Shown here: positions 12,422 to 40,144 of the stretch, one piece after another | Layout of the letters: every line of letters starts with the position of its first letter | Position numbering within the stretch: the stretch's first letter is position 1 | DNA from: Nemertoderma westbladi | Lineage: Eukaryota > Animalia > Xenacoelomorpha | Direction: 5' to 3' | Assembly: GCA_032718475.1 (NCBI GenBank) | Contig: JAUCBJ010002610.1 | Location: 15,782 to 79,781, forward strand | DNA length: 64,000 nt | Made by a program: the position numbers and the translations under genes | The notes under the pieces: model-generated | Told to the model about the DNA's origin: nothing | What the model saw: only the letters and a program-made list of their open reading frames with translations | Databases searched by the model: none

Positions 12422-12625
12422 GTATATATAATATTAATTGTAATGGTATAACCATGTCTTGCTATTTTACTGTGTTTTTATAGTCCTAAATTTCTTTAAG
12501 GGGCGCAATAAATAAATAATTGATTGTTTCTCTAGTTTCTTTGATTTCAATCCTTTACACATATTTAGTGATTGTAGCATAGACCCTGGGGTGGCACAAC
12601 AATTTGGAAATTTCTCGAAGAGATA

Positions 12626-12662
<37 letters not shown>

Positions 12663-12999: not shown

Positions 13000-13290
13000 G
13001 TTCCTTCCCCGCATTGTCCCAATCCATCCAAATGCTGTCCCAGGTTACCACCACATTGTCCAGCCCCTTCTCACTCAATGTCCCAGTCCATCCCCATGCT
13101 GTCCCATGTTACTTCCACATTGTCCAGTCCCTTCCCCGCATTGTCTCAGTCACTCCCCATGCTGTCCCCGGGTACTCCAACGGCGCTCCCACCCACTCCC
13201 ATGGTGTCCCTGTCCAATCCCTTCCCCGCATTGTCCCAGTCCAGTCCCCAGGGGTCGCGAGTTGGTTCCACAGTGCCCCCACACCCAGGG
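13000..13290. repeat. Degenerate low-complexity repeat (CATTGTCCCAGTCCCTTCCCCG-like)
   Basis: Recurrent TTGTCCC / TCCCCGCA / CCATGCTGTCCC motifs directly 5' of the LINE fragment. Confidence 0.7.
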
Positions 13291-13299
13291 ATCATCATC

Positions 13300-15789: not shown

Positions 15790-18700
15790 TTAGTTATCTT
15801 TACTGCGGCTCAGCTCGTTCCAAAACTTCATTCTATTCGGAGGAATAATCGATCCTAGACGTCGTATTAATTCTTCTAGTCTGTCAGCAGGTACACCTTT
15901 AGGTTCCTTTAAGAAATTGGGAACTAGGAAGCTTGCGTTTCTCTTCATAATATCACCTGCTACTATCCAATTAGCATCACTGTTGTAGTTCACCTTATAC
16001 TTCATCAAACGTAAACCTTTCTCGAATCGCAATGCTACAATTGACTTTAATAGCGGAAACGTACCCATTTCTCGACACTTGTTAAGTTTATAAGTAGAAG
16101 TTTCATTGGTCCAATCGTGAACGTCACTGTGGTTGACAATCATCACCTCTGATTTATAATTGGCGGCTTTCTTAACACACTTAGCAAAGTCTTGGAAATC
16201 GTAAACTTTCTTCATAGCCTTTATTTCTTTATTGACAAGTCTATGCAGGTTGTCTGCAGACATGGAAGAGTGGTGTGGCTCGAAATACCATAATTCGACA
16301 GCATCCTGTCCCATGAATTGAATCAATGTAAGAAGGCATGAGAAGAGTGTGTAATTTTTGTTTTGGGCTCCGCAATTGTCCAACCAAATCTTCACCAACT
16401 TCTTATCGCGCACTGAATTCAGAAAATAAAAGAATGTGGAAGCTATATCTTCGTCGTTACGACCATGTTCCCCATCGTGCCATATGGCGCAAAATACATC
16501 CTCATTAATTCGGTGCTTTCCGAGGGGAACGAAAGATTCGTGAAAAGCCACGATTCGCCGCAGGAACTGTACATCTTTAAACATCTCAAGTACAGGCAAC
16601 ATTATTACTTTCTGTAAATCAGCAGAAACTATGGTCATTGATTCATCCCTTTGTATCTCAGCATCCCTCTGATAGCAATCCCTGGAGCGCTGGAGGCAAC
16701 GGCACGGTCACAATGGGCTTGATGTTCAGCACAAATATCACATACAGATCCTTCAGAACTCGTGGCTGCAGTTGATGCACATGCATGTAGAGAATATGCT
16801 TCGCATTTAATACATTCTTCATGTCCCAATTGTGCGAAAGATATATTCATAGATCTGAATACTTGACAGTATTTTTGGTATTCAACAGGATGTTCGGGGT
16901 GCTTCATATTGCAATCTTCATTAAGGGCAACTAATGTAAATTCCGAAGGTAAGTATCGTCTATTTGGTGCATGCTCATATCGATAATGAGCTATTTCAGG
17001 CTGGTATGATTCTATATGCGCTTTAATAGGGGCATCAGAAATTTTATTGGCGGGTTCGTGTCGGCCGCGGGTATCTTTATGAGGAACTACATCGCTTACA
17101 GATCCCCTCAATGCCGTCTTTATTGGTTGATTGTTACTTGCTTTATACCCCAGTGTTGTCAAAATAAATTTTTGACAAACTTGACTCCGATCACCAGCTT
17201 CACTTGTGAGAAAATATTTACAAATCTTCTTTTTACGTTTTTGTGTAGCTGGAATAGATTGTTCTATTGAAGATAGCAGAAATTGGTTTCTTTGACTAGG
17301 TCCCATTGACCAAAAACTATCTCTTAAATACTGACGTCGATCTTCCCCAATACTTAATTTGCAACGAAGTTGACACATCACTACATACCGATGCTTTAAT
17401 TATATGTATCTCTCCTTTCCTTAACATTTGTTCTTTCTCCGTTCTCGCCCGAGGCTTTATAGGTGGTCTTTGACGTTTCTTCTTGTTCACTGGACGTATT
17501 TGATCTTCAGCAGATGCATCAGTAGTGTCTTCGGTAGTATCCTCAGAAACATTACCTGACAGTGGAAGCCATTCCTCTTCTATATCTTCCTCAGAGCTAT
17601 TGGACTGAATTTGGTTGGTGTTTGTCTCTATTTCAGGTGACATTTGGCCGTGACTCGGAACATTTAAAGATGGTCTGATTTCTATATCGAGCATCTCCAC
17701 ATTATCTGTATTACTGGTATAATAAAATAAACTATTCAGTATATCTTCAGCACTTTCCAAGTTACTCTGGGTCGTTCCAAGTTCGACCGATTCACCCTGC
17801 ACCGTTCCAAGTTCGACCGATTCACCCTGCACCGTTTCAAGTTCGACCGATTCACCCTGCACCGTTCCAAGTTCGACCGATTCACCCTGCACCGTTCCAA
17901 GTTCGACTGAGTCACCCTGGGCCGTTCCAACTTCGACCGAGTCACCCTGGGCCATTCCGAGTTCGACCGAATCACCCTGGGCCATTCTAAGTTCGACCGA
18001 GTCACCCTGGGCCATTCCGAGTTCGACCGAATCACCCTGGGCCGTTCCAACTTCGACCAAATCACCCTGGGCCATCCCAAGTTCGACCGAATCACCCTGG
18101 GCCGTTCCAACTTCGACCAAATCACCCTGGGCCATCCCAAGTTCGACCGAGTCACCCTGGGCCATTCCGAGTTCGACCGAATCACCCTGGGCCATTCTAA
18201 GTTCGACCGAGTCACCCTGGGCCATTCCAAGTTCGACTGAGTCACCCTGGGCCATTCCGAGTTCGACCAAGTCACCCTGGGCCATTCCAAGTTCGACCGA
18301 TTCACCCTGCACCGTTTCAAGTTCGACCGATTCACCCTGCACCGTTCCAAGTTCGACTGAGTCACCCTGGGCCGTTCCAAGTTCGACCGAATCACCCTGG
18401 GCCATTCCAAGTTCGACCGAGTCACCCTGTGCCATTCCAAGTTCGACCGAGTCAGCCTGGAGCGTTTCGACCGAGTCACCCTGGGCCATTCCGAGTTCGA
18501 CCGAGTCACCCTGGGCCATTCCGAGTTCACCCTGGGCCATTCTGAGTTCGACCGAATCACCCTGGGCCATTCCAAGTTCGACTGAGTCACCCTGGGCCAT
18601 TCCAAGTTCGACCGAGTCACCCTGGGCCATTCCAAGTTCGACCGAGTCAGCCTGGAGCGTTTCGACCGAGTCACCCTGGGCCATTCCGAGTTCGACCGAG

Positions 18701-18837
18701 TCACCCTGGGCCATCCTTTTGGGGTAGGATCTTGTAACTGGTATGTTCCTTTTTTTCCTTCTCCTGTGCCGATTTGACTCAAATCCCATAAAAACTTCCC
18801 CATCATCGTCGTCACTCTCGTTGTGCTCAAAATACAT
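15790..18837 (-). pseudogene. Sola-type DDD transposase in three frames
   Basis: ORFs 17317-18837, 16635-17381 and 15790-16638. Motifs VCQKFILTTLG, DTRGRH, HYRYEHAPNRRYLP, ECIKC, SADLQKVIMLP (D1), WLDNCGAQNKN (D2), HSSMSADNLH (D3). Frame breaks near 17385 and 16690. Confidence 0.82.
17760..18715 (-). repeat. 30-bp coding tandem repeat (~32 units) encoding ELGMAQGDSV in the transposase N-terminus
   Basis: Unit on + strand GTCACCCTGGGCCATTCCAAGTTCGACCGA; in frame in ORF 17317-18837. Confidence 0.95.
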
Positions 18838-19848
18838 GCTGAATAAACTCCGACTTTAAAACTATAATATATTTATATATAACTATTTATACCATAACCA
18901 TAAATACTATTAATTTAGTTTAAAGCTAATAATATGCTTTGATATTATGGCATTTTATTCTAGGTCTAGTTCATTGACGGTGTTTGCAAATTTGTGCTCG
19001 CTTCGCTAGCGTTATTCGTTCTATTTGACCTACTCTATTACCTACATCTATACGTTATTACGCCGAAAATTTGTGTCGGTGAAGCACAGATTTTTTGCTT
19101 AGGTCAAGTGTTGAAGAGCAATTCCAGGGCAGTATGCCATAATTTGAAATCTGGCAAAATACCCTATCTATACCAAAAGGGTGTTGTTCATTTCAAATTT
19201 CCCTCTTTATGTACTTAGTTCGAAATTACAGTCATTATGAGGCTCAATATTATAACTATTATAATGGCATTGACAGCGGCGACCTTATTCTTTCCTTAGA
19301 CTCCGTTAACCCTATATTAAGATGTAAATACCCTATCTCATTTATATTGATATAGGTTATTGTAAAATGCCCAAATATTTTTAGGCAATATACCCTATCT
19401 GTTCCAGCTCGCGATAGGGTGTTTTGCCTTAACATAAAGGACAAATAGGTGTTTTATAGGGTATTTTGCCACCTGAAAACTCTATTTTGCGCTCTGAAAC
19501 AGCCTTATCGTTCTATACTGTTAGATAGAGCGTAAAATTTTATGTGGATTTGTAAAATAAAAAAAAATTTATATTTTTTGAGATAGGGTGTTTTGCCTTA
19601 ACACGGCAGTGCGGTTCCAATGAGATAAAAGAAACCGCAGATACACGACACAAAGTAAAAGCTTACCTACACTACTAAGAATTAAGTACAGTTCGATAAC
19701 ATCGCAAAACATTATAATATTTAATATTTTTAATTGTTAATAATAAATTTAAGAAAATAACACGCATCTCAGTCTCACAAATATTAACTTTTTTTTTACA
19801 GTTTTAGTCTTACCTACCGGCTACCCCCACTAAATCAAATCTGAATAT

Positions 19849-22800
19849 GTTACTAACTCACCCTCCTATCCCTCTAGGAACCCAAATCAGTTAGTAACTC
19901 ACTCTCGTATCCCTCTAGGTACCCAAATCAGTTAGTAACTCACCCTCATATCTCTTTAGGAACCCAAATCAGTTAATAACTCACCCTCGTATCTCTCTAG
20001 GAACCCAAATCAGTTACTAACTCACCCTCCTATCCCTCTAGGAACCCAAATCAGTTACTAACTCACCCTCCTATCCCTCTAGGAACCCAAATAAGTTAGT
20101 TACTCACCCTCCTATCTCTCTAGGAACCCAAATCAGTTAGTTACTCACCCTCCTATCTCTCTAGGAACCCAAATCAGTTAGTAACTCACCCTGTTATCTC
20201 TCTAAACCCAAATCAGTTACTAACTCACCCTCCTATCCCTCTAGGAACCCAAATCAGTTAGTAACTCACCCTCCTATCTCTCTAGGAACCCAAATCAGTT
20301 AGTAACTCACCCTGTTATCTCTCTAAACCCAAATCAGTTACTAACTCACCCTCCTATCCCTCTAGGAACCCAAATCAGTTAGTAACTCACCCTCCTATCC
20401 CTCTAGGAACCCAAACCAGTTAGTAACTCACCCTCCTATCTCTCTAGGAACCCAAACCAGTTAGTAACTCACCCTCCTATCTCTCTAGGAACCCAAATCA
20501 GTTAGTAACTCACCCTCCTATCTCTCTAGGAACCCAAATCAGTTAGTAACTCACCCTCCTATCCCTCTAGGAACCCAAACCAGTTAGTAACTCACCCTCC
20601 TATCTCTCTAGGAACCCAAATCAGTTAATAACTCACCCTCGTATCTCTCTAGGAACCCAAATCAGTTACTAACTCATCCTCCTATCCCTCTAGGAACCCA
20701 AACCAGTTAGTAACTCACCCTCCTATCTCTCTAGGAACCCAAATAAGTTAGTAACTCACCCTCCTATCTCTCTAGGAACCCAAATCAGTTAGTAACTCAC
20801 CCTCCTATCCCTCTAGGAACCCAAATCAGTTAGTAACTCACCCTCCTATCCCTCTAGGAACCCAAATCAGTTAGTAACTCACCCTCCTATCCCTCTAGGA
20901 ATCCAAATCAGTTAGTAACTCACCCTCCTATCTCTCTAGGAACCCAAATCAGTTAGTAACTCACCCTCATATCTCTCTAGGAACCCAAATCAGTTGTAGT
21001 AACTCACCCTCATATCTCTCTAGGAACCCAAATAAGTTAGTAACTCACCCTCCTATCCCTCTAAGCACCCAAATCAGTTAGTAACTCACCCTCATATCTC
21101 TCTAGGAACCCAAATCAGTTGTAGTAACTCACCCTCATATCTCTCTAGGAACCCAAATAAGTTAGTAACTCACCCTCCTATCTCTCTAGGAACCCAAATA
21201 AGTTAGTAACTCACCCTCCTATCTCTCTAGGAACCCAAATCAGTTGTAGTAACTCACCCTCATATCACTCTAGGAACCCAAATCAGTTAGTAACTCACCC
21301 TCCTATCCCTCTAGGAATCCAAATCAGTTAGTAACTCACCCTCCTATCTCTCTAGGAACCCAAATCAGTTAGTAACTCACCCTCATATCTCTCTAGGAAC
21401 CCAAATCAGTTGTAGTAACTCACCCTCATATCTCTCTAGGAACCCAAATAAGTTAGTAACTCACCCTCCTATCCCTCTAAGCACCCAAATCAGTTAGTAA
21501 CTCACCCTCATATCTCTCTAGGAACCCAAATCAGTTGTAGTAACTCACCCTCATATCTCTCTAGGAACCCAAATAAGTTAGTAACTCACCCTCCTATCTC
21601 TCTAGGAACCCAAATAAGTTAGTAACTCACCCTCCTATCTCTCTAGGAACCCAAATCAGTTGTAGTAACTCACCCTCATATCTCTCTAGGAACCCAAATC
21701 AGTTAGTTACTCACCCTCCTATCTCTCTAGGAACCCAAATAAGTTAGTAACTCACCCTCCTATCTCTCTAGGAACCCAAATCAGTTGTAGTAACTCACCC
21801 TCATATCTCTCTAGGAACCCAAATAAGTTAGTAACTCACCCTCCTATCCCTCTAGGAACCCAAACCAGTTATAGTAACTCACCCTCCTATCTCTCTAGGA
21901 ACCCAAATCAGTTAGTAACTCACCCTATTATCTCTCTAGGAACCCAAATAAGTTAGTAACTCACCCTCCTATCTCTCTAGGAACCCAAATCAGTTGTAGT
22001 AACTCACCCTCATATCTCTCTAGGAACCCAAATCAGTTACTAACTCACCCTCCTATCCCTCTAGGAACCCAAATCAGTTACTAACTCACCCTCCTATCCC
22101 TCTAGGAACCCAAATAAGTTAGTAACTCACCCTCATATCTCTCTAGGAACCCAAATAAGTTAGTAACTCACCCTCCTATCTCTCTAGGAACCCAAATCAG
22201 TTACTAACTCACCCTCCTATCCCTCTAGGAACCCAAATCAGTTACTAACTCACCCTCCTATCCCTCTAGGAACCCAAATCAGTTAGTAACTCACCCTCCT
22301 ATCCCTCTAGGAACCCAAATCAGTTAGTAACTCACCCTCCTATCCCTCTAAGCACCCAAATCAGTTAGTAACTCACCCTCATATCTCTCTAGGAACCCAA
22401 ATCAGTTGTAGTAACTCACCCTCATATCTCTCTAGGAACCCAAATAAGTTAGTAACTCACCCTCCTATCTCTCTAGGAACCCAAATAAGTTAGTAACTCA
22501 CCCTCCTATCTCTCTAGGAACCCAAATCAGTTGTAGTAACTCACCCTCATATCTCTCTAGGAACCCAAATAAGTTAGTAACTCACCCTCCTATCTCTCTA
22601 GGAACCCAAATCAGTTACTAACTCACCCTCCTATCCCTCTAGGAACCCAAATCAGTTAGTAACTCACCCTCATATCTCTCTAGGAACCCAAATCAGTTGT
22701 AGTAACTCACCCTCATATCTCTCTAGGAACCCAAATAAGTTAGTAACTCACCCTCCTATCTCTCTAGGAACCCAAATCAGTTACTAACTCACCCTCCTAT

Positions 22801-25800
22801 CCCTCTAGGAACCCAAATCAGTTAGTAACTCACCCTCCTATCCCTCTAGGAACCCAAATCAGTTAGTAACTCACCCTCCTATCCCTCTAAGCACCCAAAT
22901 CAGTTAGTAACTCACCCTCATATCTCTCTAGGAACCCAAATCAGTTGTAGTAACTCACCCTCATATCTCTCTAGGAACCCAAATAAGTTAGTAACTCACC
23001 CTCCTATCTCTCTAGGAACCCAAATAAGTTAGTAACTCACCCTCCTATCCCTCTAAGCACCCAAATCAGTTAGTAACTCACCCTCATATCTCTCTAGGAA
23101 CCCAAATCAGTTGTAGTAACTCACCCTCATATCTCTCTAGGAACCCAAATAAGTTAGTAACTCACCCTCCTATCTCTCTAGGAACCCAAATAAGTTAGTA
23201 ACTCACCCTCATATCTCTCTAGGAACCCAAATCAGTTGTAGTAACTCACCCTCATATCTCTCTAGGAACCCAAATAAGTTAGTAACTCACCCTCCTATCT
23301 CTCTAGGAACCCAAATAAGTTAGTAACTCACCCTCCTATCTCTCTAGGAACCCAAATAAGTTAGTAACTCACCCTCCTATCTCTCTAGGAACCCAAATCA
23401 GTTAGTAATTCAACCTCCTATCTCTCTAGGAACCCAAATCAGTTAGTAACTCACCCTCCTATCCCTCTAGGAACCCAAATCAGTTAGTAACTCACCCTCA
23501 TATCTCTTTAGGAACCCAAATCAGTTAGTAACTCACCTTCATATCTCTCTAGGAACCCAAATCAGTTAGTTACTCACCCTATCTCTCTAGAACCCAAATA
23601 AGTTAGTAACTCACCCTCATATCTCTCTAGGGACCCAAATAAGTTAGTAACTCACCCTCATATCTCTCTAGGAACCCAAATCAGTTAGTTACTCACCCTC
23701 CTATCTCTCTAGGAACCCAACTAAGTTAGTAACTCACCCTCATATCTCTCTAGGAACCCAAATAAGTTAGTAACTCGCCCTCATATCTCTCTAGTAACCC
23801 AAATAAGTTAGTAACTCACCCTCCTATCTCTCTAGGAACCCAAATCAGTTAGTTACTCACCCTCCTATCCCTCTAGGAACCCAAATCAGTTAGTAACTCA
23901 CCCTCCTATCTCTCTAGGAACCCAACTAAGTTAGTAACTCACCCTCATATCTCTCTAGGAACCCAAATCAGTTAGTTACTCACCCTCCTATCTCTCTAGG
24001 AACCCAAATAAGTTAGTAACTCACCCTCATATCTCTCTAGGAACCCAAATCAGTTAGTTACTCACCCTCCTATCTCTCTAGGAACCCAAATAAGTTAGTA
24101 ACTCACCCTCATATCTCTCTAGGAACCCAAATCAGTTAGTTACTCACCCTCCTATCTCTCTAGGAACCCAAATAAGTTAGTAACTCACCCTCCTATCTCT
24201 CTAGGAACCCAAATCAGTTAGTAACTCACCCTCGTATCTCTCTAGGAACCCAAATCAGTTAGTTACTCACCCTCCTATCTCTCTAGGAACCCAAATAAGT
24301 TAGTAACTCACCCTCATATCTCTCTAGGAACCCAAATCAGTTAGTTACTCACCCTCCTATCTCTCTAGGAACCCAAATAAGTTAGTAACTCACCCTCATA
24401 TCTCTCTAGGAACCCAAATCAGTTAGTAACTCACCTTCATATCTCTCTAGGAACCCAAATAAGTTAGTAACTCACCCTCATATCTCTCTAGGAACCCAAA
24501 TCAGTTAGTTACTCACCCTCCTATCTCTCTAGGAACCCAAATAAGTTAGTAACTCACCCTCATATCTCTCTAGGAACCCAAATCAGTTAGTTACTCACCC
24601 TCCTATCTCTCTAGGAACCCAAATAAGTTAGTAACTCACCCTCCTATCTCTCTAGGAACCCAAATAAGTTAGTAACTCACCCTCATATCTCTCTAGGAAC
24701 CCAAATCAGTTAGTTACTCACCCTCCTATCTCTCTAGGAACCCAAATAAGTTAGTAACTCACCCTCATATCTCTCTAGGAACCCAAATCAGTTAGTTACT
24801 CACCCTCCTATCTCTCTAGGAACCCAAATAAGTTAGTAACTCACCCTCATAGCTCTCTAGGAACCCAAATCAGTTAGTTACTCACCCTCCTATCTCTCTA
24901 GGAACCCAAATAAGTTAGTAACTCACCCTCATATCTCTCTAGGAACCCAAATCAGTTAGTTACTCACCCTCCTATCTCTCTAGGAACCCAAATAAGTTAG
25001 TAACTCACCCTCCTATCTCTCTAGGAACCCAAATAAGTTAGTAACTCACCCTCATATCTCTCTAGGAACCCAAATCAGTTAGTTACTCACCCTCCTATCT
25101 CTCTAGGAACCCAAATAAGTTAGTAACTCACCCTCATATCTCTCTAGGAACCCAAATCAGTTAGTTACTCACCCTCCTATCTCTCTAGGAACCCAAATAA
25201 GTTAGTAACTCACCCTCATATCTCTCTAGGAACCCAAATCAGTTAGTTACTCACCCTCCTATCTCTCTAGGAACCCAAATAAGTTAGTAACTCACCCTCA
25301 TATCTCTCTAGGAACCCAAATCAGTTAGTTACTCACCCTCCTATCTCTCTAGGAACCCAAATAAGTTAGTAACTCACCCTCATATCTCTCTAGGAATCCA
25401 AATAAGTTAGTAACTCACCCTCATATCTCTCTAGGAACCCAAATCAGTTAGTTACTCACCCTCCTATCTCTCTAGGAACCCAAATAAGTTAGTAACTCAC
25501 CCTCATATCTCTCTAGTAACCCAAATCAGTTAGTAACTCACCCTCGTATCTCTCTAGGAACCCAAATCAGTTAGTTACTCACCCTCCTATCTCTCTAGGA
25601 ACCCAAATAAGTTAGTAACTCACCCTCATATCTCTCTAGGAACCCAAATCAGTTAGTTACTCACCCTCATATCTCTCTAGGAACCCAAATCAGTTAGTTA
25701 CTCACCCTCCTATCTCTCTAGGAACCCAAATAAGTTAGTAACTCACCCTCATATCTCTCTAGGAACCCAAATCAGTTAGTTACTCACCCTCCTATCTCTC

Positions 25801-28800
25801 TAGGAACCCAAATAAGTTAGTAACTCACCCTCATATCTCTCTAGGAATCCAAATAAGTTAGTAACTCACCCTCATATCTCTCTAGGAACCCAAATCAGTT
25901 AGTTACTCACCCTCCTATCTCTCTAGGAACCCAAATAAGTTAGTAACTCACCCTCATATCTCTCTAGGAACCCAAATCAGTTAGTTACTCACCCTCCTAT
26001 CTCTCTAGGAACCCAAATAAGTTAGTAACTCACCCTCATATCTCTCTAGGAATCCAAATAAGTTAGTAACTCACCCTCATATCTCTCTAGGAACCCAAAT
26101 CAGTTAGTTACTCACCCTCCTATCTCTCTAGGAACCCAAATAAGTTAGTAACTCACCCTCATATCTCTCTAGGAATCCAAATAAGTTAGTAACTCACCCT
26201 CATATCTCTCTAGGAACCCAAATCAGTTAGTAACTCACCCTCATATCTCTCTAGGAACCCAAATAAGTTAGTAACTCACCCTCCTATCTCTCTAGGAACC
26301 CAAATAAGTTAGTAACTCACCCTCATATCTCTCTAGGAACCCAAATAAGTTAGTAACTCACCCTCATATCTCTCTAGGAACCCAAATAAGTTAGTAACTC
26401 ACCCTCGTATCTCTCTAGGAACCCAAATCAGTTAGTTACTCACCCTCCTATCTCTCTAGGAACCCAAATAAGTTAGTAACTCACCCTCATATCTCTCTAG
26501 GAACCCAAATCAGTTAGTTACTCACCCTCCTATCTCTCTAGGAACCCAAATAAGTTAGTAACTCACCCTCCTATCTCTCTAGGAACCCAAATAAGTTAGT
26601 AACTCACCCTCATATCTCTCTAGGAACCCAAATAAGTTAGTAACTCACCCTCATATCTCTCTAGGAACCCAAATAAGTTAGTAACTCACCCTCGTATCTC
26701 TCTAGGAACCCAAATCAGTTAGTTACTCACCCTCCTATCTCTCTAGGAACCCAAATAAGTTAGTAACTCACCCTCATATCTCTCTAGGAACCCAAATCAG
26801 TTAGTTACTCACCCTCCTATCTCTCTAGGAACCCAAATAAGTTAGTAACTCACCCTCATATCTCTCTAGGAATCCAAATAAGTTAGTAACTCACCCTCAT
26901 ATCTCTCTAGGAACCCAAATCAGTTAGTTACTCACCCTCCTATCTCTCTAGGAACCCAAATAAGTTAGTAACTCACCCTCCTATCTCTCTAGGAACCCAA
27001 ATCAGTTAGTAACTCACCCTCCTATCTCTCTAGGAACCCAAATAAGTTAGTAACTCACCCTCATATCTCTCTAGGAACCCAAATCAGTTAGTTACTCACC
27101 CTCCTATCTCTCTAGGAACCCAAATAAGTTAGTAACTCACCCTCATATCTCTCTAGGAACCCAAATCAGTTAGTTACTCACCCTCCTATCTCTCTAGGAA
27201 CCCAAATAAGTTAGTAACTCACCCTCCTATCCCTCTAGGAACCCAAATAAGTTAGTAACTCACCCTGTTATCTCTCTAAACCCAAATCAGTTAGTTACTC
27301 ACCCTCCTATCTCTCTAGGAACCCAAATAAGTTAGTAACTCACCCTCATATCTCTCTAGTAACCCAAATCAGTTAGTTACTCACCCTCCTATCTCTCTAG
27401 GAACCCAAATCAGTTAGTAACTCACCCTATTATCTCTCTAGGAACCCAAATCAGTTAGTAACTCACCCTATTATCTCTCTAGGAACCCATATCAGTTAGT
27501 AACTCACCCTCATATCTCTCTAGTAACCCAAATCAGTTAGTTACTCACCCTCCTATCTCTCTAGGAACCCAAATCAGTTAGTTACTCACCCTCCTATCTC
27601 TCTAGGAACCCAAATCAGTTAGTAACTCTCCCTCATATCTCTCTATAGGAACCCAAACCAGTTAGTAACTCATCCTCATATCTCTCTATAGGAACCCAAA
27701 CCAGTTAGTAACTCACCCTCATATCTCTCTAGGAACCCAAATAAGTTAGTAACTCACCCTCCTATCTCTCTAGGAACCCAAATAAGTTAGTAACTCACCC
27801 TCCTATCCCTCTAAGCACCCAAATCAGTTAGTAACTCACCCTCATATCTCTCTAGGAACCCAAATCAGTTGTAGTAACTCACCCTCATATCTCTCTAGGA
27901 ACCCAAATAAGTTAGTAACTCACCCTCCTATCTCTCTAGGAACCCAAATAAGTTAGTAACTCACCCTCATATCTCTCTAGGAACCCAAATCAGTTGTAGT
28001 AACTCACCCTCATATCTCTCTAGGAACCCAAATAAGTTAGTAACTCACCCTCCTATCTCTCTAGGAACCCAAATAAGTTAGTAACTCACCCTCCTATCTC
28101 TCTAGGAACCCAAATAAGTTAGTAACTCACCCTCCTATCTCTCTAGGAACCCAAATCAGTTAGTAATTCAACCTCCTATCTCTCTAGGAACCCAAATCAG
28201 TTAGTAACTCACCCTCCTATCCCTCTAGGAACCCAAATCAGTTAGTAACTCACCCTCATATCTCTTTAGGAACCCAAATCAGTTAGTAACTCACCTTCAT
28301 ATCTCTCTAGGAACCCAAATCAGTTAGTTACTCACCCTATCTCTCTAGAACCCAAATAAGTTAGTAACTCACCCTCATATCTCTCTAGGGACCCAAATAA
28401 GTTAGTAACTCACCCTCATATCTCTCTAGGAACCCAAATCAGTTAGTTACTCACCCTCCTATCTCTCTAGGAACCCAACTAAGTTAGTAACTCACCCTCA
28501 TATCTCTCTAGGAACCCAAATAAGTTAGTAACTCGCCCTCATATCTCTCTAGTAACCCAAATAAGTTAGTAACTCACCCTCCTATCTCTCTAGGAACCCA
28601 AATCAGTTAGTTACTCACCCTCCTATCCCTCTAGGAACCCAAATCAGTTAGTAACTCACCCTCCTATCTCTCTAGGAACCCAACTAAGTTAGTAACTCAC
28701 CCTCATATCTCTCTAGGAACCCAAATCAGTTAGTTACTCACCCTCCTATCTCTCTAGGAACCCAAATAAGTTAGTAACTCACCCTCATATCTCTCTAGGA

Positions 28801-31800
28801 ACCCAAATCAGTTAGTTACTCACCCTCCTATCTCTCTAGGAACCCAAATAAGTTAGTAACTCACCCTCATATCTCTCTAGGAACCCAAATCAGTTAGTTA
28901 CTCACCCTCCTATCTCTCTAGGAACCCAAATAAGTTAGTAACTCACCCTCCTATCTCTCTAGGAACCCAAATCAGTTAGTAACTCACCCTCGTATCTCTC
29001 TAGGAACCCAAATCAGTTAGTTACTCACCCTCCTATCTCTCTAGGAACCCAAATAAGTTAGTAACTCACCCTCATATCTCTCTAGGAACCCAAATCAGTT
29101 AGTTACTCACCCTCCTATCTCTCTAGGAACCCAAATAAGTTAGTAACTCACCCTCATATCTCTCTAGGAACCCAAATCAGTTAGTAACTCACCTTCATAT
29201 CTCTCTAGGAACCCAAATAAGTTAGTAACTCACCCTCATATCTCTCTAGGAACCCAAATCAGTTAGTTACTCACCCTCCTATCTCTCTAGGAACCCAAAT
29301 AAGTTAGTAACTCACCCTCATATCTCTCTAGGAACCCAAATCAGTTAGTTACTCACCCTCCTATCTCTCTAGGAACCCAAATAAGTTAGTAACTCACCCT
29401 CCTATCTCTCTAGGAACCCAAATAAGTTAGTAACTCACCCTCATATCTCTCTAGGAACCCAAATCAGTTAGTTACTCACCCTCCTATCTCTCTAGGAACC
29501 CAAATAAGTTAGTAACTCACCCTCATATCTCTCTAGGAACCCAAATCAGTTAGTTACTCACCCTCCTATCTCTCTAGGAACCCAAATAAGTTAGTAACTC
29601 ACCCTCATAGCTCTCTAGGAACCCAAATCAGTTAGTTACTCACCCTCCTATCTCTCTAGGAACCCAAATAAGTTAGTAACTCACCCTCATATCTCTCTAG
29701 GAACCCAAATCAGTTAGTTACTCACCCTCCTATCTCTCTAGGAACCCAAATAAGTTAGTAACTCACCCTCCTATCTCTCTAGGAACCCAAATAAGTTAGT
29801 AACTCACCCTCATATCTCTCTAGGAACCCAAATCAGTTAGTTACTCACCCTCCTATCTCTCTAGGAACCCAAATAAGTTAGTAACTCACCCTCATATCTC
29901 TCTAGGAACCCAAATCAGTTAGTTACTCACCCTCCTATCTCTCTAGGAACCCAAATAAGTTAGTAACTCACCCTCATATCTCTCTAGGAACCCAAATCAG
30001 TTAGTTACTCACCCTCCTATCTCTCTAGGAACCCAAATAAGTTAGTAACTCACCCTCATATCTCTCTAGGAACCCAAATCAGTTAGTTACTCACCCTCCT
30101 ATCTCTCTAGGAACCCAAATAAGTTAGTAACTCACCCTCATATCTCTCTAGGAATCCAAATAAGTTAGTAACTCACCCTCATATCTCTCTAGGAACCCAA
30201 ATCAGTTAGTTACTCACCCTCCTATCTCTCTAGGAACCCAAATAAGTTAGTAACTCACCCTCATATCTCTCTAGTAACCCAAATCAGTTAGTAACTCACC
30301 CTCGTATCTCTCTAGGAACCCAAATCAGTTAGTTACTCACCCTCCTATCTCTCTAGGAACCCAAATAAGTTAGTAACTCACCCTCATATCTCTCTAGGAA
30401 CCCAAATCAGTTAGTTACTCACCCTCATATCTCTCTAGGAACCCAAATCAGTTAGTTACTCACCCTCCTATCTCTCTAGGAACCCAAATAAGTTAGTAAC
30501 TCACCCTCATATCTCTCTAGGAACCCAAATCAGTTAGTTACTCACCCTCCTATCTCTCTAGGAACCCAAATAAGTTAGTAACTCACCCTCATATCTCTCT
30601 AGGAATCCAAATAAGTTAGTAACTCACCCTCATATCTCTCTAGGAACCCAAATCAGTTAGTTACTCACCCTCCTATCTCTCTAGGAACCCAAATAAGTTA
30701 GTAACTCACCCTCATATCTCTCTAGGAACCCAAATCAGTTAGTTACTCACCCTCCTATCTCTCTAGGAACCCAAATAAGTTAGTAACTCACCCTCATATC
30801 TCTCTAGGAATCCAAATAAGTTAGTAACTCACCCTCATATCTCTCTAGGAACCCAAATCAGTTAGTTACTCACCCTCCTATCTCTCTAGGAACCCAAATA
30901 AGTTAGTAACTCACCCTCATATCTCTCTAGGAATCCAAATAAGTTAGTAACTCACCCTCATATCTCTCTAGGAACCCAAATCAGTTAGTAACTCACCCTC
31001 ATATCTCTCTAGGAACCCAAATAAGTTAGTAACTCACCCTCCTATCTCTCTAGGAACCCAAATAAGTTAGTAACTCACCCTCATATCTCTCTAGGAACCC
31101 AAATAAGTTAGTAACTCACCCTCATATCTCTCTAGGAACCCAAATAAGTTAGTAACTCACCCTCGTATCTCTCTAGGAACCCAAATCAGTTAGTTACTCA
31201 CCCTCCTATCTCTCTAGGAACCCAAATAAGTTAGTAACTCACCCTCATATCTCTCTAGGAACCCAAATCAGTTAGTTACTCACCCTCCTATCTCTCTAGG
31301 AACCCAAATAAGTTAGTAACTCACCCTCCTATCTCTCTAGGAACCCAAATAAGTTAGTAACTCACCCTCATATCTCTCTAGGAACCCAAATAAGTTAGTA
31401 ACTCACCCTCATATCTCTCTAGGAACCCAAATAAGTTAGTAACTCACCCTCGTATCTCTCTAGGAACCCAAATCAGTTAGTTACTCACCCTCCTATCTCT
31501 CTAGGAACCCAAATAAGTTAGTAACTCACCCTCATATCTCTCTAGGAACCCAAATCAGTTAGTTACTCACCCTCCTATCTCTCTAGGAACCCAAATAAGT
31601 TAGTAACTCACCCTCATATCTCTCTAGGAATCCAAATAAGTTAGTAACTCACCCTCATATCTCTCTAGGAACCCAAATCAGTTAGTTACTCACCCTCCTA
31701 TCTCTCTAGGAACCCAAATAAGTTAGTAACTCACCCTCCTATCTCTCTAGGAACCCAAATCAGTTAGTAACTCACCCTCCTATCTCTCTAGGAACCCAAA

Positions 31801-34800
31801 TAAGTTAGTAACTCACCCTCATATCTCTCTAGGAACCCAAATCAGTTAGTTACTCACCCTCCTATCTCTCTAGGAACCCAAATAAGTTAGTAACTCACCC
31901 TCATATCTCTCTAGGAACCCAAATCAGTTAGTTACTCACCCTCCTATCTCTCTAGGAACCCAAATAAGTTAGTAACTCACCCTCCTATCCCTCTAGGAAC
32001 CCAAATAAGTTAGTAACTCACCCTGTTATCTCTCTAAACCCAAATCAGTTAGTTACTCACCCTCCTATCTCTCTAGGAACCCAAATAAGTTAGTAACTCA
32101 CCCTCATATCTCTCTAGTAACCCAAATCAGTTAGTTACTCACCCTCCTATCTCTCTAGGAACCCAAATCAGTTAGTAACTCACCCTATTATCTCTCTAGG
32201 AACCCAAATCAGTTAGTAACTCACCCTATTATCTCTCTAGGAACCCATATCAGTTAGTAACTCACCCTCATATCTCTCTAGTAACCCAAATCAGTTAGTT
32301 ACTCACCCTCCTATCTCTCTAGGAACCCAAATAAGTTAGTAACTCACCCTCATATCTCTCTAGTAACCCAAATCAGTTAGTTACTCACCCTCCTATCTCT
32401 CTAGGAACCCAAATCAGTTAGTAACTCTCCCTCATATCTCTCTATAGGAACCCAAATCAGTTAGTAACTCACCCTATTATCTCTCTAGGAACCCATATCA
32501 GTTAGTAACTCACCCTCATATCTCTCTAGTAACCCAAATCAGTTAGTAACTCACCCTCGTATCTCTCTAGGAACCCAAATCAGTTAGTAACTCACCCTAT
32601 TATCTCTCTAGGAACCCATATCAGTTAGTAACTCACCTTCATATCTCTCTAGGAACCCAAATCAGTTAGTAACTCACCCTATTATCTCTCTAGGAACCCA
32701 TATCAGTTAGTAACTCACCCTCATATCTCTCTAGTAACCCAAATCAGTTAGTTACTCACCCTCCTATCTCTCTAGGAACCCAAATAAGTTAGTAACTCAC
32801 CCTCCTATCTCTCTAGGAACCCAAATCAGTTAGTAACTCTCCCTCATATCTCTCTATAGGAACCCAAACCAGTTAGTAACTCACCCTCCTATCTCTCTAG
32901 GAACCCAAATCAGTTAGTTACTCACCCTCCTATCTCTCTAGGAACCCAAATAAGTTAGTAACTCACCCTCATATCTCTCTAGTAACCCAAATCAGTTAGT
33001 TACTCACCCTCCTATCTCTCTAGTAACCCAAATCAGTTAGTTACTCACCCTCATATCTCTCTAGTAACCCAAATCAGTTAGTTACTCACCCTCCTATCTC
33101 TCTAGGAACCCAAATAAGTTAGTAACTCACCCTCATATCTCTCTAGTAACCCAAATCAGTTAGTTACTCACCCTCCTATCTCTCTAGGAACCCAAATCAG
33201 TTAGTAACTCTCCCTCATATCTCTCTATAGGAACCCAAACCAGTTAGTAACTCACCCTCGTATCTCTCTAGGAACCCAAATCAGTTAGTAACTCACCCTA
33301 TTATCTCTCTAGGAACCCAAATCAGTTAGTTACTCACCCTCCTATCTCTCTAGGAACCCAAATAAGTTAGTAACTCACCCTCATATCTCTCTAGTAACCC
33401 AAATCAGTTAGTTACTCACCCTCCTATCTCTCTAGGAACCCAAATCAGTTAGTAACTCTCCCTCATATCTCTCTATAGGAACCCAAACCAGTTAGTAACT
33501 CACCCTCGTATCTCTCTAGGAACCCAACTAAGTTAGTAACTCACCCTCATATCTCTCTAGGAACCCAAATCAGTTACTAACTCACCCTCATATCTCTCTA
33601 GGAACCCAAATCAGTTAGTTACTCACCCTCCTATCTCTCTAGGAACCCAAATCACTTAGTAACTCACCCTCCTATCCCTCTAGGAACCCAAACCAGTTAG
33701 TAATTCAACCTCCTATCTCTCTAGGAACCCAAATCAGTTAGTTACTCACCCTGTTATCTCTCTAAACCCAAATAAGTTAGTAACTCACCCTCCTATCTCT
33801 CTAGGAATCCAAATAAGTTAGTAACTCACCCTCATATCTCTCTAGGGACCCAAATAAGTTAGTAACTCACCCTCGTATCTCTCTAGGAACCCAAATCAGT
33901 TAGTAACTCACCCTATTATCTCTCTAGGAACCCATATCAGTTAGTAACTCACCTTCATATCTCTCTAGGAACCCAAATCAGTTAGTAACTCACCCTATTA
34001 TCTCTCTAGGAACCCATATCAGTTAGTAACTCACTTTCATATCTCTCTAGGAACCCAAATCAGTTAGTAACTCACCCTGTTATCTCTCTAAACCCAAATC
34101 AGTTAGTTACTCACCCTCCTATCTCTCTAGGAACCCAAATCAGTTAGTAACTCACCCTGTTATCTCTCTAAACCCAAATCAGTTAGTTACTCACCCTCCT
34201 ATCCCTCTAGGAACCCAAATCAGTTAGTAAATCACCCTCCTATCTCTCTAGGAATCCAAATCAGTTATAGTAATTCACCCTCCTATCCCTCTAGGAACCC
34301 AAATCAGTTAGTAACTCACCCTATTATCTCTCTAGGAACCCATATCAGTTAGTAACTCACCTTCATATCTCTCTAGGAACCCAAATAAGTTAGTAACTCA
34401 CCCTCATATCTCTCTAGTAACCCAAATCAGTTAGTTACTCACCCTCCTATCTCTCTAGGAACCCAAATCAGTTAGTTACTCACCCTCCTATCTCTCTAGG
34501 AACCCAAATCAGTTAGTAACTCACCCTCATATCTCTCTAGGAACCCAAATCAGTTAGTAACTCACCCTCATATCTCTCTAGGAACCCAAATCAGTTAGTA
34601 ACTCACCCTCATATCTCTCTAGGAACCCAAATCAGTTAGTAACTCACCCTCATATCTCTCTAGGAACCCAAATCAGTTAGTAACTCACCCTCGTATCTCT
34701 CTAGGAACCCAAATCAGTTAGTTACTCACCCTCCTATCTCTCTAGGAACCCAAATAAGTTAGTAACTCACCCTCATATCTCTCTAGGAACCCAAATCAGT

Positions 34801-35773
34801 TAGTTACTCACCCTCCTATCTCTCTAGGAACCCAAATCAGTTAGTAACTCACCCTCATATCTCTCTAGGAACCCAAATCAGTTAGTAACTCACCCTCCTA
34901 TCTCTCTAGGAACCCAAATCAGTTAGTTACTCACCCTCCTATCTCTCTAGGAACCCAAATCAGTTAGTAACTCACCCTCCTATCTCTCTAGGAACCCAAA
35001 TCAGTTAGTTACTCACCCTCCTATCTCTCTAGGAACCCAAATCAGTTAGTTACTCACCCTCCTATCTCTCTAGGAACCCAAATCAGTTAGTAACTCACCC
35101 TCCTATCTCTCTAGGAACCCAAATCAGTTAGTAACTCACCCTCATATCTCTCTAGGAACCCAAATCAGTTAGTTACTCACCCTCATATCTCTCTAGGAAC
35201 CCAAATCAGTTAGTAACTCACCCTCATATCTCTCTAGGAACCCAAATCAGTTAGTAACTCACCCTCTTATCTCTCTAGGAACCCAAATCAGTTAGTAACT
35301 CACCCTCATATCTCTCTAGGAACCCAAATCAGTTAGTAACTCACCCTCATATCTCTCTAGGAACCCAAATCAGTTAGTAACTCACCCTCCTATCTCTCTA
35401 GGAACCCAAATCAGTTAGTTACTCACCCTCCTATCTCTCTAGGAACCCAAATAAGTTAGTAACTCACCCCCCTATCTCTCTAGGAACCCAAACCAGTTAG
35501 TAACTCACCCTGTTATCTCTCTAAACCCAAATCAGTTAGTTACTCACCCTCCTATCTCTCTAGGAACCCAAATCAGTTATAGTAACTCACCCTCATATCT
35601 CTCTAGGAACCCAAATAAGTTAGTAACTCACCCTCCTATCTCTCTAGGAACCCAAATCAGTTAGTAACTCACCTTCATATCTCTCTAGGAACCCAAACCA
35701 GTTAGTAACTCACCCTCCTATCCCAGAGGAACCCAAACCAGTTAGTAACTCACCCTCCTATCCCAGAGGAACC
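19849..35773 (-). repeat. 41-bp satellite (~390 copies) derived from the GGT exon-3 / intron donor junction
   Basis: Minus-strand unit GGTTCCTAGAGAGATAGGAGG|GTGAGTTACTAACTGATTTG vs the genuine junction GGTTCCTCTGGGATAGGAGG|GTGAGTTACTAACTGGTTTG at 35773-35734. Confidence 0.97.
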
Positions 35774-35905
35774 ACTGTGGATCACAGATATACAAAATGT
35801 TGCCGCCACTGCCGCGTCCACTGCATTCCCGCCGCTCTGTAGAATTTTCGTACCGACTTGGGAACATTGAGTGGCGTCGCTCGCTACTGCACCGTGCGGG
35901 AGAAC
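35754..35905 (-). CDS. GGT7: GGT7-like gamma-glutamyltransferase, coding exon 3 (152 nt)
   Basis: TTCTAG| VLPHGAVASDATQCSQVGTKILQSGGNAVDAAVAATFCISVIHSGSSGIGG |GTGAGT; GGT N-terminal signature GAV..D..CS..G..IL..GGNAVDAAVA...SSGIGG. Phase 0 start, phase 2 end. Confidence 0.92.
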
Positions 35906-36016
35906 CTAGAACCATAGTGAGTGATCAGTGGACATGGACAGGATTAAATTGGATAATATAAAATAAAAAATTAATGAAAGTATAGGCCTATTCTTATAAA
36001 ATAAACGGAGCGAAAA

Positions 36017-36377
36017 TGTCGTAATTCAGTGACATGATCCCCCCCCCCCCCCCCCCCTCAAGTTTTCTACAGGTTGGGAAATAGTTGAGTTATGGGCATT
36101 CGAATGTTGCATGTAGGCCTTAGGCCTATTTGTTTCCTATGTATATGTACTAGTATTATGAATATTATGTATTTATTAGATAGAATAAATTGCCTGCACC
36201 AGATGCAAAATCATTAAGATTTGTAGAAAAATTTGGGGTGGGGTGGGGTGGGGTGGGGGTGGGGTGGGGGTGGGGGTGGGGTGGGGTGGGGTGGGGTGGG
36301 GTGGGGTGGGGTGGGGTGGGGTGGGGTGGGGTGGGGTGGGGGGGGGGGGGGGGGGGGGGTATCACTGAATTACGACA
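36017..36377. mobile_element. MITE-like element with 16-bp inverted repeats, containing poly-C and (GGGGT)n
   Basis: TGTCGTAATTCAGTGA (36017-36032) / TCACTGAATTACGACA (36362-36377); a related end sequence occurs at 9361-9400. Confidence 0.6.
36234..36360 (+). repeat. (GGGGT)n / poly-G tract, G-quadruplex-prone
   Basis: About 20 consecutive G4-G5 runs separated by T, then poly-G. Confidence 0.9.
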
Positions 36378-36628
36378 CTATATTCCAGGACATGGTGTAA
36401 ACTGTTAAGTAGTGAGACATTACTACTTGCTGACTTGGACTAGGAAATTAAAATTATATTAGAAAATATAAATATTTCATGATTTATTGATTTAAACTCA
36501 ATTCTTAAACATTAAATAACTAATCTTACCAGGATGGTTGATTATATTGGTGGATCAATGATTGATTAACATACAATTTATATTTCAAAAATAAATATAT
36601 ACCGGTATAGAAATAATAATAAACTCAC

Positions 36629-36825
36629 AGGTGGAACTCCTATAACATTTTCCACTATAACACCGATTGTCAAGGCAACTGCGAGAACTATAGAAGAGCC
36701 TATAATCACATAAAGTTGAGTCTTTTCGCTGCCACATTTAGAATCCCATAAACCTCGTCCTTCTGAGCTCAACGGAGTTTTCTCAGACAGATCGCTGTTG
36801 CGTGAAGCCAAGGGCAATGTGTCCG
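36629..36825 (-). CDS. GGT7: GGT7-like gene, coding exon 2 (cytosolic tail plus type II transmembrane anchor)
   Basis: TTGTAG|CG GAC ACA TTG... DTLPLASRNSDLSEKTPL...LYVIIGSSIVLAVALTIGVIVENVIGVPP|GTGAGT; phase 0 end joins exon 3 in frame. Long tail and TM followed by G.P resemble GGT7 more than GGT1; paralogue assignment is tentative. Confidence 0.8.
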
Positions 36826-39800
36826 CTACAATTAAAACAGTTAAAACAAATTAGATAGTCTGTCTGACTAATCGGGTTTACCAAAATATCACAGAATCAA
36901 AATGGCATTGATAAGATGCTAAAACATATGAGATAATTGCTATAGGCCTAAGTAAAAATATTCATCAAATTGTCTGCCAGTCTGCCACTCCGACGCTCTA
37001 CGTATGTTGTTAGGCTCTTAATAAATGTATACAGTCAAATGGTGTAATCATATACACCATTTCCCATAATACAACAACCATGTTTAGCAAGTCGGAGAGC
37101 ACCCCCACGCCCCCCCCCCCCCCAATTTTTTCAAATTTCACTCAAATTTCAATTTCAAATTTGGAATTTTTTGGTGAAATTCAAAACAGTTTTCCGATTC
37201 TGGAGATAAAGGCGGTTCCAATGGTATCCGGATTACAGGTATAACCAAAAGACGAAAAATAAAGTCAATAGAGATGGTAAAATATTGCTTAAGAGGCGTT
37301 TTAATGGCTTGTTGTATCGAAATGCGAAATGGAACAGAAATTGAAAAATCCGGCTCTGCCCGCAGTAAGAAAAGTGGGTACGGGTAGGACTAAAAACCAA
37401 AACGGACCCAAACGGCAACGGGGAAATACGTAGTTATATCGGATTTATTCATATCACAATGGTGTGGCGAAAAGATCTGGAAATACAATTTACCACTTAA
37501 TTAATTAATTAATTAATTAAGTAAGCCCTAAAACCTTAATTGATTTCCTGCATGCCTAGATGTGCTGATACGATGGTACCGGTACAAACTACAAAGGACT
37601 TTCAGTTTCTCAGTATAACACCATACACCGTGTGTAGGTTCAGTTTGGGTGAGTTCCAATATTTTGATGATTAAATCGCCACAATGGAGGTTAAACTTTT
37701 TACTACTGTAGTATGCTGCCGCTATGGTCGCTATGGAGAAAACAATCGCCACAACGGAGGTTATACTGTCTGACCGGGGTTGCCGCAAGTTGAGGAAACT
37801 ATTTCAGTGAAATAGGCCTATTTTATTTCCGTTTTATTCACATTCTTCGTAAATTGTATTTCCAGCCACACCGTTTGCCGTTGTGATATTAATATGTCCA
37901 ATACCGGTCGCCTGTATGGAATCCATCCAAAAAGTGCGCCGGACAGCGCGCCGACCAATATTTATGCGCTCCGCGCGCCGATGCAATTTCGAAGCAAACC
38001 CTGCGTCAACGAAAATTTTAAGCGTGCCGCACATTGCTGCCAATGTCAGTACTGCTGTACCTGTCCCTGCTGCCCTGTACAGCAGTAGCCTAACCACTGA
38101 ACCATACAACAGAAAAAAGAAAGGCGATTGAAGCGAGTCGAAATTTTTAAACAGCTAATGCAATTTTTAAGGCACTTCCGTAATTGTTAAACTAACAAAT
38201 CGGCGCCGGTTTTTATTTTTGGGAGCGCCACGCGCCAAAGCCGGCGCGCTTTACGATTTTCGAGCGCGCCACGCGCGCTTTTATTGCAAAGCGCGCTGGA
38301 TTCCAGTCTGGACCGGTCGTATAACTCCGAATTTCCCCGTTTGGGTATCGTTTGTGTCCGTTTGGATTATAGTCCTACCGACTGACCGAGAAAAGTTGTG
38401 GAACTAATTTTAAAATCACTCAATCAATCATCATTTCTAAATTTGAAAAATATTAGGCCGGGCCGGGAGTGCGGGAGATGGTGTATAAACTATAAAGCAG
38501 CAAGTTATCCCTTAGGAGAGTACAGAGTACACTGATACCTATTTGGAGCCGTTTCCCAGCTTGCGGATACCGGGATATGCAGTATGATATGGATAACATT
38601 CGGATAACAATCAGATAGCTGTATAGGCATAAACAAAACTAAAGTATCACATGCTTCAAAGGCTGAAATGGAACTAAACGTAATTATAATTGACAACGTG
38701 AACATCACCACAAGGCACTAGGCAGCAAGCAGGCAAGGGGGCATTAAAGTTTGAGAAACGGTGTGACAGAAGAAAAATCGAATTTGTGTCAAAATTTAGA
38801 AAGAGTGAGAAAACCAAATTGATTCTAGTCGAAAAACGGGATGAAATGAAATACGGGATGACATTATTTTCATTATATGTCTTTATGTAGGAATGGCAGA
38901 ATGGAAAGATAGATAGATATACTGAACTGTGAGTGAAGGATGATTTAGATTGCAGGGCAATTGTATCAGCATTACACAGTTCTGCAGTTACAATCTTTAA
39001 CTATCAGACTATTATTGGTACAAACAACAATCCAGCAATCAAATCAACCACCTCCCCAAGCAGCGCCAGAGATTACTAGCAAAAATAAACTATCACCAGT
39101 CAGCTGGTCAGTCTGTGTTTGTGTTATTGATTCTCATTCTCACCTTATTTACGATTTATTACAATATATAGCTGTATTGGTTAGAACTTATAATATGCCA
39201 CTCCACTACCGGTATAAGCAATAAGTATAACCTGGCCCTTAGGTAGTTAGGCCTAACATTTCAGGATCTATGGAATGACCATAGGACTTAATGACGCAGA
39301 ACGATATAAGCCATATTCATATTCAATGAGTTAGTTAAGTTGCCAAATATGGCAACAACGGCTTTATATCTGTATATAGTTGCCAAATCAGGCAATCAGA
39401 AATGTTGCCAGATTTTGCTTGGTTGCCAAATATGGCAATCACAATCATGTGCAATGTATCATTGTACAATGGCCAAATTTGGCCATTGTACCTAACCTAA
39501 CTGACATTACAAATACAAATTACGAGAATAAGAACAGAATGATGTTTATGAATACAGGAATATGAAGATTGCATGTAAAACTAGGCCTGCCAAAATTGGC
39601 AGTACTATCAATTTTGGCAGTAAAACTACCAATATTGTAACATGCCAAAATTGGTAATGTGCCCGACTTACAACGGAAGGCAGTAGGCAGTAGGCAGGTA
39701 GGCCTATGTTTGGTTGATTCTGTTTGTTATAACAGTGCCGCATGCCGCGGTGCCGGTATATTTTCCTGCTAAAGCTAAAGTCATGGTTGTTGGTTTCTTA

Positions 39801-40110: not shown

Positions 40111-40144
40111 CTGCACCGTCACCGGCGCCTTTATTTGAAGCCAT
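40111..40144 (-). CDS. GGT7: GGT7-like gene, probable first coding exon
   Basis: GCAATGG Kozak context; ATG GCT TCA AAT AAA GGC GCC GGT GAC GGT GCA G|GTAAGT; the phase-1 donor matches the 2-nt CG start of exon 2 (MASNKGAGDGA-A-DTLPL...). Confidence 0.7.

What the first reader, a model, noticed from the sequence alone, without database searches (positions are those of the whole stretch)
19849..35713. Each satellite unit is a complete splice cassette: donor, TACTAAC branch point, TAG acceptor and a 12-nt frame-preserving microexon
Seen on the GGT sense strand: GTGAGT TACTAAC TGATTTGGGTTCCTAG | AGAGATAGGAGG | GTGAGT... The derived unit gained the TAG acceptor (ancestral exon TCTGGG became TAGAGAG), with the branch A 18 nt upstream of the piece. 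Spliced after the phase-2 donor, the 12-nt piece adds E-I-G-G, but common variants read ATA TGA (stop) or ATA CGA. In the middle of the array, sense and stop versions alternate as an 82-bp dimer. A single 29-nt intron is too short for most animals, but any donor could pair with an acceptor n units on (29+41n nt). Inference: a lattice for stepwise/recursive removal of the array, or a bank of poison microexons. The polypyrimidine tract is weak, so use is uncertain.
Basis: partly seen in the sequence, partly recalled or inferred. Interest (0 to 1): 0.8.

Follow-up and report, generated by a model that had tools for sequence, protein, structure and literature searches.

The report
Giant splice-junction satellite in GGT intron
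The end of an exon of an animal's glutathione-breakdown (GGT) gene and the start of the next intron are repeated about 388 times over 16 kb, and most copies carry all three splicing signals, but the cell likely uses only the first signal and skips the rest, making this an oversized case of a repeat type known from human and lancelet genes.

Summary
The motifs are real, but not in every unit. The 41-bp array (19849-35762, minus strand) began as a duplication of the last 20 nt of GGT exon 3 plus the first 20 nt of intron 3. Of 387 full units, 375 keep GT, 254 TACTAAC (353 CTAAC), and 376 give a 12-nt piece, 157 of them with TGA; 222 are strictly complete. True recursive splicing fails its defining test: splicing into the TAG regenerates no donor, and only 8 units have AG|GT. 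Donor and branch A of one unit lie 12 nt apart. The microexon reading is weak: short, predicted-paired tract, almost no UGC, and an insertion into the conserved IGGG motif. The ancestral unit already had a TAG. Splice-signal columns are not clearly more conserved than others. Best reading: a giant 'mirage' (F7/CBS-type) satellite, spliced from the first donor, with at most low-level leak; nested splicing between units remains open. No transcript of this gene could be examined. The scan noted similar giant junction satellites on other DNA of this genome.

The parts
40111..40144 (-). Likely GGT exon 1, coding part (MASNKGAGDGA, phase-1 donor GTAAGT)
   Evidence: frame fits exon 2 (inferred, no transcript)
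36629..36825 (-). Likely GGT exon 2 with a hydrophobic membrane anchor, ending at a phase-0 donor
   Evidence: open 66-codon frame accepted (no Pfam hit); weak alignment to mollusc GGT P0006, E 1.5
35754..35905 (-). GGT exon 3 (152 nt, VLPHGAV...HSGSSGIG-G), phase-2 donor; its last 20 nt seed the repeat
   Evidence: PF01019 E 4.5e-10; human GGT1 chain 4z9o_A E 5.5e-10
35714..35753 (-). Authentic donor and unit 1 (40 nt), the only copy with the ancestral exon tail; has a TAG 24 nt after the branch A
19849..35713 (-). Derived 41-nt satellite, 386 full units plus a final partial one; donor, branch-point motif, TAG and 12-nt piece in most units
27706..32332 (.). 4,627-bp block identical to 22948-27574 (offset 4,758 bp, 116 units): recent unequal crossover or assembly artefact
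19781..19838 (+). Dispersed repeat abutting the last, truncated unit; 81% like 12791-12851 in the opposite orientation

Best explanation
This is a giant exon-intron junction satellite ('mirage' type) at the start of GGT intron 3, which the spliceosome likely skips by joining the first, authentic donor to a distant exon 4 while the internal splice signals stay largely silent. Shown: the unit is the last 20 nt of exon 3 plus the first 20 nt of the intron, so donor and TACTAAC were inherited in one duplication; a later change in the exon tail moved the first AG 8 nt closer to the branch point; the array then grew by block duplications. Inferred: the first donor wins because only it closes a full-length exon. 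Within a unit the donor and branch point overlap, so U1 and U2 would compete for the same bases. The tract is short, G-interrupted and predicted to be partly paired. Any leak (a later donor, a stop-bearing piece, a longer pseudo-exon) would meet an in-frame TGA and likely be degraded; the sense piece would likely give a faulty enzyme. The array would thus be tolerated, not selected.
For: Origin from the junction is read directly. Signal columns are not clearly more conserved than others: with one copy of the duplicated block and unit 1 left out (274 of 387 units), P = 0.31-0.65 for distinct alleles and 0.05-0.29 for frequency over four definitions. Variants that damage signals have spread: 133 of 387 units lack TACTAAC, 34 lack CTAAC, 12 lack GT. 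157 of 376 12-nt pieces carry TGA. Reading through a donor meets a stop at 379 of 386 junctions. [ILVM]GGG is unbroken in 101 of 105 homologues where the motif was found, of 120 examined. In human F7 only the most upstream of identical donors is used (PMC1557585 abstract and section 6). Lancelet mirages often carry AG/GT signals yet do not disturb splicing (PMC3087553 and PMC3902484 passages). An exact 4.6-kb duplicate and edge-retained older variants fit ordinary satellite turnover.
Against: The perfect TACTAAC with a well-placed YAG is rare by chance (2 of 20,000 shuffles). The unit's tract (9-10 pyrimidines of 14) is as good as the gene's own two acceptors (8 and 9 of 14) and better than 80-89% of 719 background YAG sites, so weakness alone does not exclude use. 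One frequency-weighted test favoured constraint (P = 0.024; it kept the duplicated block, ignored indels and left out the variable T of TACTAAC; 0.051 after correction). The allele tests have low power. In human 6-16 and CBS, two pseudo-donors are used besides the real one (PMC1557585 passage). No GGT exon 4 was found in the 19.8 kb downstream.
Confidence: 0.67

Rival explanations
1. Nested (intra-) splicing: internal donors regularly pair with acceptors one or more units downstream (70, 111, ... nt introns), collapsing the array in jumps, while the outer intron from the exon 3 donor is removed last and leaves no trace in mRNA.
For: Donor to next-unit branch A is 53 nt, just above the roughly 50 nt minimum reported for human extracts (PMC6692369 passages). 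321 of 387 units have GT, CTAAC, YAG and a following GT. The acceptor is as pyrimidine-rich as the gene's real ones. Nested events exist in human introns (bioRxiv 10.1101/159350 abstract).
Against: No sign of constraint on branch point plus AG columns (P = 0.36 and 0.22). Each branch point overlaps a U1 site (sequence; competition inferred). The same acceptors would also be open to the exon 3 donor and would then trap a piece in the mRNA.
Confidence: 0.17
2. Regulatory decoy or poison array: the signals are used to include stop-bearing pieces, or to bind U1, U2/SF1 or STAR-family proteins (ACUAAC; motif assignment recalled) and promote intron retention, lowering GGT output.
For: 157 stop-bearing pieces and 353 CTAAC motifs. 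Folding predicts the tract is more paired in sense units (unpaired probability 0.17) than in stop units (0.36), which would bias any leak toward stops. A decoy-exon model exists (PMC7373989, search listing only).
Against: The ancestral unit already gave a frameshifting 4-nt piece, so the change added no poison. Hundreds of copies are not needed for a poison exon. Branch-to-AG distance is 17-18 nt, against medians of 45 nt for human neural microexons; TGC is present in 6 of 387 units.
Confidence: 0.07
3. The GGT copy is truncated or dead, so the array is not spliced at all.
For: No later GGT exon in window 1-19849 by tblastn with 20 homologues, an HMM, or motif scans; transposons and an opposite-strand F-box ORF lie there.
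Against: Three exons with an open frame, matching phases and canonical splice sites. The window ends 19.8 kb past the array, so exon 4 may lie beyond it.
Confidence: 0.07
4. True recursive splicing: the exon 3 donor ratchets through the array unit by unit.
For: 8 units end in AG directly before a GT.
Against: Ratchet points are juxtaposed acceptor and donor (PMC8605326 passages). Here 12 nt separate them, so each step would leave a piece in the RNA. In the 8 AG|GT units several AGs lie nearer the branch point.
Confidence: 0.02

Closest known systems
Human junction-spanning minisatellites: F7 IVS7 (37 bp, 5-9 copies), 6-16 (25 pseudo-sites), CBS intron 13, lamin B2, PDGF (PMC1557585: abstract, section 6 and passages read)
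   Same: First unit spans an exon-intron boundary, so the donor is repeated into the intron; similar unit size.
   Different: About 388 copies over 16 kb instead of 5-25. Units here also hold a perfect branch-point motif and a YAG; the passages read describe donors only.
Lancelet 'mirages': Adh3, globins BflGb6/BflGb9, troponin C, PGBD5 (PMC3087553, PMC3902484: passages read)
   Same: Tandem copies of an intron-exon border in an invertebrate gene; many units keep AG/GT signals; edge units escape homogenisation; splicing reported normal; proposed as a route to intron gain.
   Different: 3-6 units in BflGb6 against about 388 here. This one is donor-derived, with a later shift of the acceptor.
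Recursive splice sites / RS-exons (PMC8605326: passages read)
   Same: Acceptor and donor motifs close together inside a long intron.
   Different: No donor is regenerated at the acceptor; no conservation shown.
Neural microexons (PMC12871342: abstract and section 20 read)
   Same: 12-nt, frame-preserving piece between AG and GT.
   Different: Short branch-to-AG distance, no extended tract, almost no UGC, region predicted paired, 42% carry a stop.
UBC tandem dual-specific splice sites (PMC10809524: abstract read)
   Same: Tandem array in which each monomer carries splice signals; there splicing is stochastic between monomers.
   Different: UBC uses AGGT dual sites in coding repeats; this array is intronic and lacks AG|GT in 379 of 387 units.

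Membership tests
Junction-spanning minisatellite / mirage | Tandem unit is a copy of the gene's own exon-intron boundary | tested here: met
   Unit 1 = last 20 nt of exon 3 + first 20 nt of intron
Junction-spanning minisatellite / mirage | Copies keep splice signals and show concerted turnover with older variants at the edges | tested here: met
   375 of 387 GT; ancestral tail only in unit 1, intermediate tail enriched at the far end; 4.6-kb duplicate
Junction-spanning minisatellite / mirage | Mature mRNA uses the authentic site | tested here: inconclusive
   No run covering exon 3 was obtained
Recursive splice site (ratchet point) | Acceptor AG directly followed by donor GT, so splicing regenerates a donor | tested here: not met
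   TAG is followed by AG, 12 nt before GT; AG|GT in 8 of 387 units
Recursive splice site (ratchet point) | Saw-tooth coverage or intermediates in nascent RNA | not testable with these tools
   No nascent RNA data for this organism in hand
Neural microexon | Short, frame-preserving length | tested here: met
   12 nt in 376 of 387 units, but 157 with TGA
Neural microexon | Extended, accessible branch-to-AG region with UGC motif | tested here: not met
   17-18 nt; mean predicted unpaired probability 0.34; TGC in 6 of 387. Hallmarks come from vertebrates
Neural microexon | Conserved sequence, inclusion in mRNA | tested here: inconclusive
   No clear constraint within the array; no orthologue or transcript found
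Nested / intra-splicing | Internal donor and acceptor with enough donor-to-branch distance | tested here: met
   53 nt to the next unit's branch A, 12 nt within a unit
Nested / intra-splicing | Lariat or junction reads between internal sites | not testable with these tools
   Needs lariat or long-read nascent RNA

The most novel reading that the evidence does not exclude
A donor-only junction repeat became a working splice lattice: once the acceptor moved next to a perfect branch point, internal donors and acceptors began to cut the 16-kb array out in random jumps before the outer intron is removed. A selfish satellite would thereby carry its own means of excision, and its 12-nt pieces would be raw material for new microexons.
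Probability: 0.15. Interest if true: 0.75.

Novelty: new variant of a known kind. Interest (0 to 1): 0.35.

Why it matters
If silent, it shows that an animal spliceosome can ignore about 375 near-identical donors and over 300 branch-point-plus-AG sites in one intron. That makes it a natural, sequence-barcoded test of first-come donor choice and of U1/U2 competition, since unit variants can be told apart in reads. If the internal sites are used, it would be a direct case of satellite growth creating nested introns or microexons, the intron-gain route proposed for lancelet mirages. Seven literature searches listed no donor-derived satellite of this size with all three signals; the library is limited to open-licence papers.

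Tried and rejected
No whole genome is held, so other copies and exon 4 could not be sought. Run search with 35673-36830: no RNA holder listed; 24 runs at shares 0.07-0.08. Eight of the 24 were laid on 35673-36030: none covered exon 3; two gave only 31-letter AT-rich matches at 35953-35982. This is no evidence on expression; the share probably came from the G-rich run near 36234 (my inference). A unit pattern found nothing in metagenome contigs. Exon 2 found no homologue. Exon 4 search in the window was negative; a TAG 32 nt after the last donor gives G-G-G-S-R-stop and lies in a dispersed repeat, so it was rejected. No splice-strength model was available; pyrimidine counts against the gene's own acceptors were used instead. 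Scan notes by place 'near', by sequence and by words returned nothing.

Full report
Observation. Tandem Repeats Finder gives one array at 19849-35762, period 41, 387.5 copies, 93% matches. Cut at the donor position on the minus strand it has 387 full units and a truncated last one. Of the 387, 375 start with GT and 373 with GTGAGT; 254 have TACTAAC and 353 CTAAC; 376 give a 12-nt piece after the first downstream AG, 157 of them with an in-frame TGA. Sense and stop units alternate more than chance in the middle (178 of 259 steps against 138 in shuffles), though the longest strict run is 10 units. So the description holds for most units, not for each.

Host gene. The exon at 35905-35754 encodes the N-terminal GGT segment (PF01019, E 4.5e-10; human GGT1 structure, E 5.5e-10). 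Two upstream exons fit it in frame and phase. No later GGT exon lies in the 19.8 kb after the array, so intron 3 is over 35 kb or the gene is incomplete. No whole genome is held and no close relative was found.

Origin. Unit 1 is the last 20 nt of exon 3 plus the first 20 nt of the intron. Donor and TACTAAC were therefore copied together in one event. TACTAAC sits in a dyad, AGTTA-C-TAACT, and 12 units carry the central base flipped. The exon tail changed from TCTGGG to TAGAGGG and then TAGAGAG; the intermediate form is commonest at the far end. The ancestral unit already had a TAG 24 nt after the branch A, giving a 4-nt piece; the change moved the first AG to 17 nt. A 4,627-bp block is duplicated exactly, which is either a recent crossover or an assembly artefact.

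More than chance? A perfect TACTAAC with a well-spaced YAG arose in 2 of 20,000 shuffles of the unit and 0 of 60 flanking donor-like sites; the degenerate animal motif yTnAy did so in 1,512 of 20,000 and 7 of 60. The perfect motif is thus unusual, but it is one event, chosen after the fact. The tract has 9-10 pyrimidines in 14 nt, as many as the gene's own acceptors (8 and 9) and more than 80-89% of 719 background YAG sites. Use cannot be excluded on strength.

Is it kept by selection? Counting distinct alleles per column, signal columns are not spared (P = 0.44). One frequency-weighted test gave P = 0.024, but it kept the duplicated block, ignored indels and left out the variable first T. With one copy of the block and unit 1 removed (274 units) and indels counted, four definitions gave P = 0.31-0.65 for alleles and 0.05-0.29 for frequency. 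Power is low, so this is absence of support, not proof of neutrality.

Mechanism. Within a unit the branch A is 12 nt from the donor; about 50 nt is needed in human extracts (PMC6692369 passages). To the next unit it is 53 nt, so pairing across units is possible. Recursive splicing needs a juxtaposed AG|GT (PMC8605326 passages); joining exon 3 to the TAG regenerates no donor, and only 8 units end AG|GT. The piece would stay in the RNA. The sense piece would insert four residues into [ILVM]GGG, which is unbroken in 101 of 105 homologues where the motif was found (15 of 120 missed by the pattern). Reading through any later donor hits a stop at 379 of 386 junctions. Vertebrate neural microexons have a long, open branch-to-AG region, often with UGC (PMC12871342 section 20); here it is 17-18 nt, predicted unpaired only 0.34 on average, with TGC in 6 units. 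In sense units a TCCTA/TAGGA hairpin is predicted to cover the tract. What remains feasible is nested splicing between internal sites (bioRxiv 10.1101/159350 abstract), which would leave mRNA normal and cannot be seen without lariat data.

Comparison. Human F7 intron 7 has a 37-bp unit spanning the junction; only the first donor is used and the next takes over when it is mutated (PMC1557585). In 6-16 and CBS two extra donors leak. Lancelet mirages often keep AG/GT signals, splice normally, and were proposed as a route to intron gain (PMC3087553, PMC3902484). This array meets the structural definition of that class; normal splicing was not testable here. It differs in size and in carrying a perfect branch motif plus acceptor in a donor-derived unit. 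Unreviewed scan notes describe many similar giant junction satellites in this genome, one with both signals in NF-kB and one with possible use of an internal donor in GALNS; I treat them as leads and did not test them. Supplements of the papers were not read.

Verdict. Observation partly confirmed; recursive and microexon-bank readings not supported; nested splicing open. Best explanation: a giant, tolerated junction satellite (0.67). Novelty: new variant of a known kind. Interest 0.35; a working self-excising lattice has probability about 0.15 and would deserve 0.75.

Noticed in passing
window 15299-19615: Likely DNA transposon with terminal inverted repeats (84% over 51 nt), holding three minus-strand ORFs: one with a 30-bp coding repeat (17760-18714) and one with a sub-threshold DUF7869 hit.
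   Followed up: partly
window 12866-14903 (+): GC-rich overlapping ORFs that look like a non-LTR retrotransposon remnant (my reading); no Pfam hit.
   Followed up: partly
window 4166-6634 (+): 823-codon open frame with an F-box-like domain (E 1.4e-6), opposite in strand to GGT and possibly inside its intron.
   Followed up: partly
window 252-2838: A second satellite (49 bp, 52.8 copies) with no GTRAG or CTRAY motif on either strand.
   Followed up: partly
window 51615-57294 (-): BEL/Pao LTR retrotransposon ORFs (Peptidase_A17, DUF5641, integrase zinc finger).
   Followed up: partly
window 57300-64000 (-): A roughly 3.9-kb unit present twice in tandem (repeat rows at 57684 and 61620) with a long ORF that looks reverse-transcriptase-like by eye; no Pfam hit.
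   Followed up: no
window 44703-49998 (-): Two long ORFs (497 and 865 codons) without Pfam hits, flanking a 145/292-bp repeat.
   Followed up: no
window 35906-35929 (-): The real acceptor of exon 3 resembles the satellite's acceptor (both have ACTGAT upstream and end GGTT(C)CTAG); coincidence or exchange is unresolved.
   Followed up: no
window 36234-36360: 125-bp TGGGG/G run in GGT intron 2, G-quadruplex-like on the plus strand.
   Followed up: no
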